A model generated the notes under the pieces. It saw only the letters and a program-made list of their open reading frames with translations. It did no database searches and was not told where the DNA came from. DNA of 63,771 nt, the filler included, from Collodictyon triciliatum (lineage: Eukaryota), in NCBI GenBank assembly GCA_043381765.1. It is 5 parts of 5 records of this genome, joined end to end, with 100 filler letters (N's around TTAATTAATTAA, not from the genome) between each part and the next. Parts side by side here need not be neighbours in the genome. Positions count along the whole stretch, not along the records: positions 1 to 18,231 come from JBHJMP010000107.1; positions 18,332 to 36,479 come from JBHJMP010000108.1; positions 36,580 to 47,253 come from JBHJMP010000110.1; positions 47,354 to 57,543 come from JBHJMP010000111.1; 1 more part is not named here. One strand, written 5' to 3'. Made by a program: the position numbers and the translations under genes. Positions within the stretch are counted from its first letter, which is position 1. Every line of letters begins with the position of its first letter. Below are positions 5,425-56,400 of this stretch, one piece after another.

Positions 5425-8400
5425 TCATTTAAGTATATTGCTAATTTTTGAAAAGAAATCGTCGTCCTGGCTGTCCCTGTCGCCAGGAAGGGTGCCCTGG
5501 GCAGCCCCCACACCCAATGACTTCAGCAAACCCAACTCATCTTCGTAATTGTGCGCAACCAGTGGGTCCCTTTCTCGAAGAACTTGTGATAGGATTTGCG
5601 TTCGGTATCGAGACCGTGGTAAATCTGAGGTGGGCGATATTACTAAAACGCTCTGGTTCCTTGTCAACAACGGGCTTTTGCCAGGAACTAAGACGCTCGG
5701 GGACAGATTTGGGGATGACGCCGAGGCTGCCCCAACAAAAAGGTGCGGTTTTCCAAAGGCAGGGAACTCTACTCTGGCAGGAGAAAATACCTTCGGCTCA
5801 TTCATTCCCATGGACTGAATCTCGTGTTCTCTTTCCTCATGATCCTCGTCAGTGGTTTCTGAAAGTCGGTGAACAGACGGTAGAGCATTTGTTGGTGTCG
5901 TTTCCTTCTCATCTTCCTCCATCAAGTTCAGTTGTACATAGGATATCAGATCTTGTGTGCCAAGCTCAGTACTTAACTCAAGATCCTTTTCCACCACATA
6001 TCTGGATATATTCTCTAGACACAAACTCATGGCGTTGAAGTATCGATAGATGCGATGGTTATCTAGACTATTCTTTGTGTGTAAGAATCTTTCAAAGGAG
6101 GTCATTTTCAATAAGACGTTTCCATCAGGGTCTATAGTCACCTATAATTTATTGTTAATTTTTATTTATTTTGAATCGAATAAAGGAAAAATAATTATTT
6201 CTATTTCTATTATTATTTTGAAAAGCGCAAAGTTCTCAGGGGGGAAGGGGTAGTCCAAATGGCAAAGTTATACAAGCCACATACTTCATGCCCCACGTGT
6301 TTAAAGAAGAACAGAAATTTAGGAAGAGCTGTCACAATATCCTGGTCACCAGTAATTCTGAATGAATTAGGGACAACCGCATTGTAATATTCTGCAAATG
6401 AATGATTCCCAACTCTAGGAGACCCGAAGTTGTACATAATAACTCTGGTATTCTTGGTGCTATTTTCCGCAATATCTAGTGCAGCAAATGTCGCAAGTGC
6501 ACCACCTGAAGATATACATATATATCAAGTAAAAAGAACCTTAAATCATGTTCAGGATTCGGTTATGAATTAGGTATTTATGACAAGTTAGTAAATTATA
6601 CCGAGACTGTGCCCAGTAACAAGTATGGTAACAGACTCTTTGCCTCCTTTTGGTGTCTCAGAAATTCTTTGTGCTATTGCGCGCACTTTCCCGACCATTG
6701 TCTTTCTTATTTTACTTGGGGTATACAATGGCATCATTGAATATAGGAAAATGGGCTATAAAAGCATTACCAAACTGTGCATTTTCTTATAAGTAGTTTT
6801 ATCAGGCCATTACGATTTTATTATATGCATCATTTTCACAAACCAGTAAGACGTAAAAAACCCCTTATGCACAGCCATGGGGCTTACAGCTTCCATGATT
6901 CCCTGATGGAAACGATTTCCAGAATAGTTCAGCCTATTAAAGAAGAAGGAGAAAGGGGAAGAGGAAGGGGAATACTAAAGGTGTTATTCATTATAGCAGA
7001 GCTTAAATCATATGCATTTGTCCCTTTTAGTTATGGCCAAAACTTATATTATTATCATCCCCACTTGAATCGAATAAAAGAAAATACATATAATTGGCAT
7101 CACCTATTCCGGTCTCGGTTCGGTAATGGTGTCCAATTGCACCTGAACATATTCGCATCTGTTTTTGCATTAACAACAGAATTGGTTCCTCGAAAAGAAA
7201 CGACAATTCGGTTTTCACATATGAAAATGTACGCATGAGTGTCCGTTTCTTCATCAAATATTTTTTCCTATTAAAGAAATGATCATAATCATAACAATAA
7301 TAAACAATAATAAACAATAATAAACAATAATAAACAATAATAAACAATAATAAACAATAATAAACAATAATAAACAATAATAAACAATAATAATAATATA
7401 GCTTATCTTGATTCATAAGACGAGTTTATATTAGAATAGGATATTATCATACTTCCAATTCCGAAAATATCGACTCGCAACTTACCAAAAATTTGTATTC
7501 ACGCAATTTACATTGCATCTTCTCCTCCACCGCAGTCTGTAATTCAAATAACAGCAATAAAATGGTAAATGAAAGAAATGGAAGGAATGCACCAATAATT
7601 CTTTCAGATTTATGAATGAACTATAATATTGCGCAAAATTACACAGCTGGAAAGCAAGAAAAAAAATCAACGAACACTTTCTTCTCGTCTAAATTCTGGA
7701 TCTTCCAAACCTGGTTCAAAATAAACCTAATCCAAATTAATCATTTGAAATTATGATACAAACAAGTAATAAGTCTTTGTGGTAAATGTATCAAATAGAT
7801 ATCTTAACTTATTGAAGGTTGATAAATAAATAATAAATAAAAACCAGATTAAGACATACTTTCAAAGATAACCATGAAAGATTTTTAGCAGTTTGAACAT
7901 AAAATATGTTTTTCTTAAATTGGTCGTCAGGTGGGTCAGGGCCAATAAGTTTTATTTCGACTTTTTCACCATATACTGGAAGGCCAAACTTCAATCCAAG
8001 GGTAACTGAATATTTCATTAGTTTAATTTTGTTCCATCTATCAAATACTATGAATAGTTCGACGAAAAACAAAGAAAGAAATATTAACTGATGTCCTTTG
8101 ATTCTGCTGGGAGGTAAACATAGCCAAGAGTCAAAATGTAAACACTATACATAGGTGTGTTTTAATATGTTAATTTTATCCATTTGAATGACATTTCTCA
8201 TATCTTGATGAGCGGATTTCTCAAAATGTTAAAGTAATATTACGAAGAGAAAAAATTATACCTATACAATATAAGAGAGGACAGCGGTCTATCCTCAACT
8301 ATACCGTAATCAAATTCGTTGTAGGATACAATCATCAGAATAACAAAGTAAATAGAAAAAAAGAATCCCTGATAATTTTTTATAAAAAAAAAGGTCAGTT

Positions 8401-53400: not shown

Positions 53401-56400
53401 GGATAACTGGTTTTCGTATTGTTTGGATTGTGCATTTCTGGAGAAAATTGAAAACATCCATTTCGCCTAAGTTGCATATGTTATAATATTTAAATAAATT
53501 GAGTTTAAAGAGATTATGAAACGGTTTGCATCATCATAAAAAACGAACCTGCTCTTTTGGCATCGTCAGATGCTGTATTACCCCATCTATCAGTCGCAAA
53601 GATATCGATTTCTGTCTTATGTACAAGGAACTGCGAAAATAGGAAAGAAATGATTTTTAACTCCGACCACCTCCATTGAGCTGATGAATGAGAGAAAAAC
53701 TGTGAATTTCTTTCAAAAAAGAAGAAATAAAAAAAAAGGGAGAATCATTCAAGTAATAAGTCATACTTCAACAACAGATAAATGACCCTCTACGGAGGCA
53801 ATATGCAGTAGCGTTCTAGAGTGCAAAAGTTAGAGTGTTTACATAAATCATCCAAAAATACAGCAGCCCACTAGTTACTTTATCAATTAATAAACATGCC
53901 AACATCTTCACCATCCTGCACAAAATTGAAAGGAAGAATAAAAAAAATCAATTAATAAACATAGAAATAAAAAACCTGTTATCATAGTCTTTCACAGAAA
54001 AATCAGGCCCATGTGATGCGATACATTCTAGCAAACCCAAATCACCAGAATACACAGCCTTTCGAAGCAATTTGTTCATATTTGAGGGAGTGACACTGGC
54101 TACACTGCATTCGATGTTAGAATTGATATGCCTTTACAGGAGATGTACGACATTGTTTAATTTTTCTTTTCTTCTTATTAGTATAATGATTGTGAACTAC
54201 AGTTATATTTGTTACACCTCTCATTGTTCTTTACCTGTCATGTGAACTGGCACCACTGAATCCGGACACCGACAAGGAGTCAGAATACTCCGTATGGTCA
54301 GAAAATGTTTGCTTTGTGCAAAAGAATGAGGTTGATTCATCATATATTAAAGAACGATGGTCATAGCAATACTAAGATGTTTTCTAAAAGGTTATGCCTC
54401 CACCACTATTTGAATATATAAACAAGACTAAAGGCCATGACAATAGCATAAAATAGATTTTACAATGCTTCTTACGATAGGTGAGACAGGGTTACTCAAT
54501 TCGATATTTCCTTCTTTCTTCATTTGATGACGTAGTTGATTTAATTTTCTCTCCAGCTACTCATATAAATTAAAGTAAAAGTTAATGAAGACCAAGTGAT
54601 AGCTTCTGGTTGGTTGTTATTTTCCTAAAGGAAGCTTCTATTCTCTATAGTGAACTACTCAATTATCTATTTTATTTACGAAAGTAAAAAGAAAAATCAC
54701 TTCGTGATATTCTTCTACTAAATCCTGGGATGACCCGACACTCTTTTCAGATCTAAAAGAACGACATTACAGTATTTATATACAAGATAAAGATGTTATG
54801 ACTTCCTACCCTTAAGCGGGAAAGGACTATTTGAAAATTATAAAATGTTACTTGGCAGAGTCACTTGGAGTTCGCGTAGAGGGTTGATTAATAAGAGCTC
54901 GGAGATTGTCTACATATAATTTTCGATATTTTGATTATTGCATAATATCAGGAACAATGTAGAATGCTACGTAATAAATTCAGAAAAGTGGCTGAAATTT
55001 TCTTCCAGGAAAAAGAAGAAAAATAGTAGGAAAAAAATAGAGACTAACATAAAATGTATAGAATGTCAAATTAGCGAAATAATAGTAATAAAAATAATTG
55101 GTTAAGTAATACTTTGAATCGAATAAAGAAAAAACATTAAGAAATCGTATAAGAATTCCGCTGTATAACGATTCCTATAGAACTTACAGCATTCAAGCAC
55201 GTAAAGTTCGTTGGGTAAAATATCAACAGAACTTGCCCCTCCAAACACATATACTCTTCAGAAAAGTTGTTTTTAGATTAGGACTGTATGATTATACTTT
55301 CTTATCTTAATTCGATTCAAATTGGTCAATGGCTACCAAATAAAAATTAAAAAAAAAAACTTAAATGACCATACTTTGTTCCAATGACAGCACTTCCATG
55401 TTTGAATCTCGAACATGGAATATCACCAGCAAATGATACTGGAAACCAGCGATTGTTATCTAATTTTACAAAAAAATAAAAAAAGTGATTAAATAAAAAT
55501 AAAAATCATGTAATTGAAGTTTTCAGCATACCAGGGTTGAATACCCATGTGTCATTCACGACGCGGTCATCACCAGTAACACCTCCCATGAGTATCAGAA
55601 GCTCATCTGCTAAGACACACGAATGTCCATTTCTTGCTGAAGGTTTATCGCCAATAGAGTCTAGCTTTGTCCAGACCAGAGTATCTATGAAAATGAGATA
55701 CTGATATTAAATATGCTACAAGGTCTTGAGAATGATACCACACAGATCGAAAAGGTAAGATTAAGAAAATATTAATTAAAGGAAGATATATGACACGAAC
55801 CTAAATCTAAAATGTGCAGTTCATTTAGTGACTTCTTTAAATTGAATCCCCCAAAGACATACATTTTTTTTCCAATTACATTTGCCGAATGTCCCTAACA
55901 AGAGAACATAAGTGCAAAAGCTTAGCGCATTTTTTTTTTAAAAGTTCGTCAAGATACATTAAATAAGGAAAAATAACACATAGCAGCATCCAAAATAAAA
56001 TGGATGGCGATGCATAACTTACACCTCGAGCAGATGGAATATCTCCACTAGTCTTTGCTTTTTCCCATGAACAGGTGCGCTCATCAAAGACGTTAACATC
56101 ATTGTAAAGGGAATCGTGAGGGCCTGTGCAGAATATTATGAAAATTAAAGTAAATTGACATTTAGATACATACTTGAAAATGGAGATATTCGTAGCTGAA
56201 TGCATAACTTGAATAAATCACTTACCATAACCCCCAAATATGAACAGCCGATTTTCGTATGATACACATGAGTGAGCATAGCGCGATTTTGGAGTATTCT
56301 GAAACAAGAATTTTGATGAACAGAATTTACAGATACCAATAAAAATAGGAAAAGGAAGAACAGGAAAAGGAAAAGGATGAGGAAAAGGATGAGGAAAAGG

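What the first reader, a model, noticed from the sequence alone, without database searches (positions are those of the whole stretch)
6171..55127. Recurrent strand-biased 14-17-mer (AC)TTTGAATCGAATAAAG(G)A(n) in introns and intergenic DNA
Seen: the exact 14-mer TTGAATCGAATAAA occurs at 6171, 7065, 24555, 55114 (+) and 25662, 35460 (-). Shorter or variant copies are at ~12103, 12987, 21005 and 41930, across four scaffolds. A rough estimate (A/T 0.33, G/C 0.17 each) expects about 0.003 copies of a given such 14-mer in this window, although the motif was picked post hoc. All exact intronic copies and the listed variants have AATAAA antisense to the host gene; weaker partial matches at ~51548 and ~55307 are in the other orientation. 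Most copies are followed by an A-run, and similarity stops abruptly at the same 5' point. Inference: either a defined tiny mobilised RNA/retro-tail purged in the sense orientation, or a sense-strand UUUAUUCGAUUCAA intronic element or DNA-binding site.
Basis: partly seen in the sequence, partly recalled or inferred. Interest (0 to 1): 0.72.

Follow-up and report, generated by a model that had tools for sequence, protein, structure and literature searches.

The report
Tiny tail-tip scars of a LINE
The repeated 14-letter word is the very end of an L1-type jumping gene, pasted thousands of times as stubs of about 25 bases that mostly start at the same spot; the copying process is known, but such a sharp and early stop is unusual.

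Summary
The motif is real: six exact copies in the window and 2,711 in the 75-Mb genome, against 1 for the reversed control. It is the 3' end of an L1-clade LINE: four loci run from the RT frame into a short 3'UTR, the motif and an A-tail. Of 100 sites picked by the tail alone, 70 have a target-site duplication (null 0 of 300), 61 carry only 13-18 element bases and 47 carry 15-17. Genome-wide counts fall 75% within seven bases, then slowly. So these are ~25-nt target-primed insertions with a sharp 5' edge. The antisense rule fails: 24 of 42 copies in Pfam-supported genes are antisense (p=0.44), and the copy at 24555 is sense. A sister LINE leaves short stubs without the spike; a third tail shares the 14-mer with a weaker spike. 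Best guess for the stop (inferred): the insertion is resolved once the RT has copied through the bound 3' element; a pre-trimmed RNA is the main rival. This scan noted the same stubs before on other DNA of this genome.

The parts
35450..35474 (-). Young family-A stub, 25 nt: last 15-16 element bases, GG, A-tail
35475..35492 (-). 5' copy of the perfect 18-bp target-site duplication of the 35460 stub
35432..35449 (-). 3' copy of the same 18-bp target-site duplication
24540..24577 (+). Family-A stub with 29 element bases, GGG and A6; no TSD found; sense to a spliced + transcript that stops at 24539
6170..6191 (+). Family-A stub (15 element bases, GG, A5) in a predicted intron of a class-3 lipase gene, antisense; no clear TSD
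55111..55134 (+). Family-A stub (17 element bases, G, A6) in a predicted intron of a Kelch gene, antisense; no TSD
7063..7084 (+). Older stub (family A or A'), decayed tail, predicted lipase intron, antisense
25654..25689 (-). Stub of the related tail family A' (C-rich upstream part, same last 14 bases), decayed tail
21000..21018 (+). Possible decayed family-A stub inside the RNA-supported intron 20947-21091 of an IFT81-like gene (antisense)
55300..55321 (-). Possible decayed stub, 1 mismatch, sense to the Kelch gene
18153..18231 (-). Fragment of the parent family-A LINE ORF2 C-terminal region between assembly gaps (78 of 78 nt identical to L038)
24841..24900 (-). Weak, old fragment of family-A ORF2 (79-83% over 40-63 nt)
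53898..53946 (+). Stub of sister LINE family B, 49 nt, with a perfect 16-bp TSD (53882-53897, 53947-53962)
48562..48618 (+). Older family-B stub with a 13-bp TSD (48549-48561, 48619-48631)
32323..32366 (-). Decayed family-B stub, no TSD called

Best explanation
The motif is the 3' terminus of an autonomous L1-clade LINE (family A: APE endonuclease, RT, zf-RVT, then 91 nt from the stop codon to the end of AATAAA, then GG and poly(A)). Its protein nicks AT-rich DNA at roughly TT|AA, primes on the A-tail and copies the RNA (target-primed reverse transcription). Most events are closed after about 25 nt (median; ~16-17 element bases plus GG(G) plus ~8 A), leaving a stub between 15-19-bp duplications. 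Shown: parentage, TSDs, target preference, length spectrum, and that the spike is specific to family A. Inferred (about 40%): the last ~17 nt are the element that the RT holds; once cDNA synthesis strips it off, the RNA anchor is lost and second-strand nicking and joining follow at once, so the edge sits at the 5' border of that element. The stubs are dead scars with no evidence of function.
For: RT-frame loci L038, L042, L054 and L080 end in the motif; L080 is contiguous from RVT_1 through zf-RVT to the tail; APE in L074, which is 88-93% identical to family A. Sister ORF2 matches human L1 ORF2p at E 4e-42 against R2 at 2e-19. TSD in 70 of 100 tail-selected sites, null 0 of 300, mode 17; T at -1 in 49 and A at +1 in 64 of 70. 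Exact 14-mers along the tail: 2,711 / 689 / 633 / 430 / 211 at positions 1-14, 8-21, 12-25, 27-40 and ~147-160. Family B has no spike (19 copies, 15-117; KS p=4e-7). GG and GGG copies start at the same base (16.2 vs 16.3). The last 14 nt plus GG are shared by tails A and A' while the upstream part differs. Analogy: in R2, bound 3'UTR suppresses second-strand nicking until cDNA synthesis removes it (PMC12503042, passages); L1 ORF2p binds a template stem-loop (PMC10830416, passages).
Against: The candidate hairpin is not stable by itself (-0.3 to -1.3 kcal/mol, z about 0). A' shares the terminal 14-mer but has a weaker spike (2-4 of 11-13 at 16-19 against 28 of 39 for A; Fisher p=0.004-0.02). 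A minor cluster starts at 8-9 (6 of 70 TSD copies). Start and tail length show a weak negative trend (rho -0.22, p=0.14, n=46), so a ruler is not excluded. Exact-word counts are affected by subfamily variants. Long copies break this assembly (several end at contig edges), so the short fraction is overstated. 30 of 100 sites had no TSD, and TSDs under 11 bp were not sought. No intact full-length family-A copy or ORF1 was found.
Confidence: 0.85

Rival explanations
1. Same parent and same TPRT, but the template is already short: LINE RNA is degraded 5' to 3' or cut until only the protein-protected last ~19 nt plus A-tail remain, and the RT runs off its end. (Rival for the stop step only.)
For: 27 of 47 peak junctions are blunt (19) or carry 1-2 extra bases (8), against ~80% with microhomology in human truncated L1 (PMC2912911, passages). 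An R2 study proposes template truncation before cDNA synthesis (PMC11331408, passages). Three tail families all leave very short copies.
Against: Microhomology is still above chance (20 of 39 against 27%, p=0.002). Extra bases (8 of 47) are about as frequent as in truncated human L1 (14.6%). Only contigs were available, which cannot show RNA ends.
Confidence: 0.3
2. A geometric ruler: joining is possible only at set cDNA lengths (about one helical turn apart), whatever the sequence.
For: A' starts at 17, 19, 28, 28, 28, 29, 31, 37, 38, 47, 58 (best period 9.75, p=0.002, n=11). Family A has a second hump at 26-33 (18 copies against 5 at 21-25, p=0.07).
Against: No period in A at 21 or more (p=0.88), in B (p=0.50) or pooled (p=0.6-0.98). 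2 of 7 tests were positive, both on the same small A' set. B has no spike at the A length. Start position varies less (SD 1.6) than start plus tail (SD 2.2).
Confidence: 0.12
3. Ordinary smooth truncation, with selection against longer inserts in short introns and loss of long copies from the assembly.
For: Predicted introns have a median of ~132 nt. 7 of 100 early-contig sites reach 50 nt, but 16% of genome-wide words reach position 40, so long copies gather on small contigs.
Against: Neither filter makes a 3-nt-wide peak (47 of 100 at 15-17) with fewer copies on both sides, in sites chosen without the 5' part. B lies in the same genome without it.
Confidence: 0.08
4. A separate tiny non-autonomous RNA (micro-SINE) with its own start, purged in sense orientation.
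For: Near-fixed 5' end and thousands of copies.
Against: Every base is the LINE's own 3' end, and lengths run continuously up to RT-coding copies. No head or promoter region. No Rfam match. Extra 5' bases are mixed, not a cap-type G (1 of 8). No significant orientation bias.
Confidence: 0.04
5. A functional intronic element or DNA-binding site, or a library adapter.
For: About 92% of sites fall in predicted introns, though that model over-calls introns.
Against: Site-specific TSDs, A-tails and insertion inside dead LINE frames. The same long tail occurs in independent contigs (loose ends; L299, 1 of 35 hits).
Confidence: 0.02

Closest known systems
5'-truncated human LINE-1 insertions (TPRT)
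   Same: APE-RT-zinc-finger protein, A-tail, TT|AA-like target, TSD near 15-19 bp (human peak 14-16; PMC2912911, passages).
   Different: Median insert ~25 nt against 712 bp in a human cell study (PMC11702581, passages); a sharp start point; fewer junction microhomologies (51% of non-extra junctions against ~80%); short A-tails. The human survey in PMC2912911 only took inserts of 50 bp or more, so it could not see this class.
Poly(T)-only L1-endonuclease insertion in NF1 (PMC3219598, passages)
   Same: A retro-insertion cut down to its tail, read by the authors as a severely truncated Alu, L1 or pseudogene.
   Different: One case among 18, about 120 nt of homopolymer. Here the stub class is the majority, keeps 16-17 specific bases and has a short tail.
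R2 retrotransposon 3'UTR release before second-strand nicking (PMC12503042, passages)
   Same: Offers the step that would place a stop at the 5' border of the bound 3' element.
   Different: R2 is site-specific with an RLE nuclease; no such step was tested for this element, and R2 is not described there as leaving fixed stubs.
SINEs with LINE-derived tails; tailless retropseudogenes (PMC3747384 and PMC5322556, search listing only)
   Same: Short non-coding retrocopies with TSDs; a tail shared with a LINE.
   Different: No tRNA, 7SL or 5S head and no independent transcript; tailless copies lack the 3' end, whereas these are only the 3' end.

Membership tests
L1-clade LINE (parent) | ORF2 with APE endonuclease, then non-LTR RT | tested here: met
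   PF03372 + PF00078 in L041 (family B); PF03372 in L074 and PF00078 in L080 (family A)
L1-clade LINE (parent) | C-terminal CCHC / zf-RVT domain | tested here: met
   PF13966 in L080 and L069
L1-clade LINE (parent) | Closest named RT is L1 rather than another clade | tested here: met
   Family-B ORF2: human L1 ORF2p E 4e-42 against R2 2e-19; best hit a mammalian L1-like protein, 26% over 98%. No tree was built; L1 versus Tx1 is not resolved.
L1-clade LINE (parent) | ORF1 upstream of ORF2 | tested here: inconclusive
   No full-length copy was held; three upstream frames gave no Pfam hit
TPRT insertion | Target-site duplication | tested here: met
   70 of 100, null 0 of 300, mode 17 bp
TPRT insertion | 3' A-tail and TT|AA-like target | tested here: met
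   (the tail was part of the search, not)
TPRT insertion | Empty orthologous site | tested here: inconclusive
   One contig of run X2 leaves the window exactly at the 5' junction of the 24555 copy but ends in a microsatellite 28 nt later
SINE | Pol III-derived head or own promoter, distinct from the LINE | tested here: not met
   Inserts consist only of LINE 3' sequence; no Rfam match on the L038 3'UTR
Stringent-type LINE 3' stem-loop | Stable, conserved terminal hairpin | tested here: inconclusive
   Fold not better than shuffles; the terminal 14-mer is conserved between A and A', with one stem-compatible change
Stringent-type LINE 3' stem-loop | RT binds and needs the element | not testable with these tools
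   Needs binding or retrotransposition assays

The most novel reading that the evidence does not exclude
The genome holds a footprint, thousands of copies deep, of a discrete early checkpoint in target-primed reverse transcription. The L1-type enzyme closes most insertions as soon as it has copied through its own 17-nt 3' recognition element, with further exits possibly about one helical turn apart (seen in tail A'). That would give a direct handle on when second-strand cleavage happens and why LINEs truncate.
Probability: 0.3. Interest if true: 0.7.

Novelty: new variant of a known kind. Interest (0 to 1): 0.42.

Why it matters
Why LINE insertions truncate, and when the second strand is cut, are open questions. 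A family in which about half of all sampled inserts start within three bases, beside a sister family without that spike, is a natural comparison that can be rebuilt in vitro by swapping tails. In practice, such 20-50-nt stubs are below the size of usual repeat surveys, so LINE activity in genomes like this is undercounted: at least 2,711 + 1,207 tail words against 135 RT matches (the last is a lower bound).

Tried and rejected
Stable hairpin as the cause: folds no better than shuffles. tRNA B-box or spliced-leader likeness (recalled, no call): dropped once the parent LINE was found. Snap-back fill-in at the 5' junction: the base before the stem is A 54, T 9, C 5, G 2, with no clear pattern. 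General 10-nt periodicity: not supported outside A'. First self-trained gene model: drifted to GC-rich exons and was discarded. Parent ORF for A': no hit upstream of the longest copy. Family-B tail first read as internal to a third RT frame, then shown to be the B 3' end. Metagenome scan: 34 of 35 hits lack the tail and look like chance matches. No RNA holder listed on record; the runs laid are contigs and say nothing on small RNAs; run X4 laid nothing. Literature: searches returned 0 papers; others listed papers, none describing a majority class of fixed ~25-nt stubs as far as titles, abstract starts and the passages read show. The library lacks most subscription papers; no supplements were read. 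The A, A' and B samples could not be enlarged further, so the periodicity test stays small.
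Full report
Observation. Eight sites match within one mismatch, against a mean of 0.11 in 100 shuffles. The genome (75.4 Mb, 14,576 contigs) holds 2,711 exact copies, against 1 for the reversed word, about one per 28 kb. 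The window is several scaffolds with gaps, from an intron-rich eukaryote with IFT81 and dynein domains. I did not determine its lineage; an earlier unchecked note calls it a freshwater protist related to Diphylleia. The variants at 12103, 12987 and 51548 lack the tail and a close match.

What it is. In 36 distinct sites (30 loci plus the window), many copies read duplication, a few bases, the 14-mer, GG(G), A-run, duplication. A search for RT domains gave 135 matches (lower bound). Three of the 30 loci returned (L038, L042, L054) run from the RT region into the motif, and so does L080. In L080, RVT_1 is followed by a zf-RVT frame whose stop lies 91 nt before the end of AATAAA. L074, 88-93% identical to family-A copies, has the APE domain. 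The sister family B (about 74% identical) has APE plus RT and matches human L1 ORF2p at E 4e-42 against R2 at 2e-19. The window itself holds 79 bp of family-A ORF2 at 18153-18231. Tiny copies with TSDs also interrupt LINE frames (L036/L064, L078). No intact full-length copy or ORF1 was found.

Length spectrum. To avoid selecting on the 5' part, I searched the tail alone (1,965 hits against 58 control) and examined all 100 places listed, the first in contig order. Element match was 20 nt or less in 79 (3 of these look like chance), 13-18 in 61, 15-17 in 47, and 50 or more in 7. A TSD was found in 70 (0 of 300 mismatched pairs), mode 17 bp, with T before and A after the cut; TSDs under 11 bp were not sought. 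The median insert in the peak is 25 nt. A minor cluster starts at 8-9 (6 copies). Genome-wide exact 14-mers along the tail number 2,711 (positions 1-14), 689 (8-21), 633 (12-25), 430 (27-40) and 211 (~147-160): a 75% drop in seven bases, then slow decay. Caveats: subfamily variants lower the upstream counts, and long copies end at contig edges, so the short share is somewhat overstated (7% of the sample reach 50 nt; 16% of words reach position 40).

Comparison families. The B tail has 1,207 exact words, then 449 and 292 further up. Its TSD-defined starts are spread from 15 to about 47, with few longer (19 of 44 sites; 32 of 53 with looser settings), and differ from A (KS p=4e-7, 40 against 19). 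A third tail, A' (128 exact words), shares only the last ~14 nt plus GG with A; the window copy at 25662 belongs to it. A' has a weaker spike: 2-4 of 11-13 at 16-19 against 28 of 39 in A (p=0.004-0.02; four A rows removed as A' or with unrelated 5' sequence). A' starts are spaced about 10 nt apart (p=0.002, n=11), but A at 21 or more, B and three pooled sets are not (p=0.5-0.98); 2 of 7 tests were positive, both on A', and three rows were dropped first.

Junctions. Of 47 peak junctions, 19 are blunt, 15 share 1 nt, 5 share 2 or more, and 8 carry 1-2 mixed extra bases. Microhomology exceeds chance (20 of 39 against 27%, p=0.002) but is below the ~80% reported for truncated human L1; extra bases are similar (17% against 14.6%) (PMC2912911, passages). 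Start position varies less (SD 1.6) than start plus tail (2.2). The correlation is weak (rho -0.22, p=0.14, n=46, one long tail dropped), and GG and GGG copies start alike (16.2, n=33; 16.3, n=14). This favours a sequence-fixed stop without excluding a ruler. The terminal hairpin starts at position 16 but is not stable alone.

Orientation. Contigs of two runs guessed to be RNA gave nine introns on the minus strand and one on the plus strand in 20400-26030. The 21003 variant is antisense in one of them. A spliced plus-strand contig ends at 24539, so the 24555 copy is sense. I scanned 423 frames near 128 sites with Pfam (four low-complexity or RT hits dropped). 44 sites had a hit within 1.5 kb: A 19 antisense to 13 sense, B 8 to 4. 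A gene model (40 of 44 Pfam exons recovered, but trained on them) gave, for sites inside Pfam-supported genes, A 16:13 and B 8:5 (counted by hand), together 24 of 42, p=0.44, interval 41-72%. Over all modelled introns, A is 48:41 and B 19:11. The target matrix alone predicts 52%. In the window 5 of 6 exact copies are antisense by model, which explains the impression. Strict purging is rejected; a mild bias is possible.

Mechanism. Shown: LINE parent, TSDs, target preference, the spike and its family specificity. From established knowledge: nicking, priming on the A-tail and TSD formation as for L1 (PMC11702581, passages). Inferred: the stop. I favour early resolution once the RT has copied through the bound terminal element (about 40%), by analogy with R2, where bound 3'UTR blocks second-strand nicking until cDNA synthesis displaces it (PMC12503042, passages), and with stem-loop binding by L1 ORF2p (PMC10830416, passages). 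A pre-trimmed template (about 30%; compare PMC11331408, passages), a ruler (12%) and filters alone (8%) remain. The weak fold and the weaker A' spike count against my favoured reading.

Relation to what is known. These are 5'-truncated L1-clade insertions, not a SINE and not a binding site. Human inserts are far longer (median 712 bp in one study), and a tail-only case was 1 of 18 in NF1 (PMC3219598, passages). A pan-cancer preprint (10.1101/179705, passages) had nothing on this class. Ten literature searches ran; none showed a majority class of fixed stubs, within a library that lacks most subscription papers. Earlier notes of this scan reached the same reading on other pieces of this genome; my reading was written before the first look-up, and those notes are not independent support. 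Added here: genome-wide counts, a 100-site sample not selected on the 5' end, the orientation test and tail A'.

Verdict. Real, explained in kind, unusual in degree: new variant of a known kind, interest 0.42.

Noticed in passing
window 53882-53962 (+), 48549-48631 (+), 32323-32366 (-): Stubs of sister LINE family B, two with TSDs; 1,207 exact tail words genome-wide, lengths spread from 15 to about 47 nt.
   Followed up: yes
window 25654-25689 (-); L262-L291; L095:8150-8330: Third tail family A' shares only the last 14 nt plus GG with family A; starts spaced about 10 nt apart in 11 copies; parent ORF not found.
   Followed up: partly
window 24159-24539 (+): Spliced plus-strand contig (run X2, intron 24300-24383) starting about 500 bp from the IFT81-like gene, head to head; may be the 5' part of the cyclin-domain gene at 26198-27052.
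   Followed up: partly
window 14940-15020 and 16780-16860: About 75 bp occur twice, identical, one copy right beside an N gap; likely a local duplication or assembly overlap. It contains a family-B-like word that may not be an insertion.
   Followed up: no
window 18153-18231: A 79-bp piece of family-A ORF2 next to a 742-N gap, suggesting an unassembled longer LINE copy.
   Followed up: partly
L259 (G000:C258:7245-7307): Two tail matches in opposite orientation about 50 bp apart; one has a short TSD call, the other only AATAAA-GGG-A(n).
   Followed up: no
L121, L092:8567: Stubs with about 18-20 nt of unrelated sequence between the TSD and the element: possible template jumps or mis-called TSDs.
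   Followed up: no
L074:4643-9145 (-): A 1,500-aa open frame of an LTR (Ty3/gypsy-like, by recalled motifs) retrotransposon, lying opposite a family-A LINE copy; observed only.
   Followed up: no
window 45932-46930 (+): A long, nearly intron-free, GC-rich class I/II aminotransferase frame in an otherwise intron-rich region.
   Followed up: no
whole window: About 100-bp microsatellites of many unit types; predicted introns are T-rich on the sense strand (11,349 T against 9,637 A).
   Followed up: no
L299: One metagenome contig carries the same family-A 3'UTR and A-tail (1 of 35 hits).
   Followed up: no
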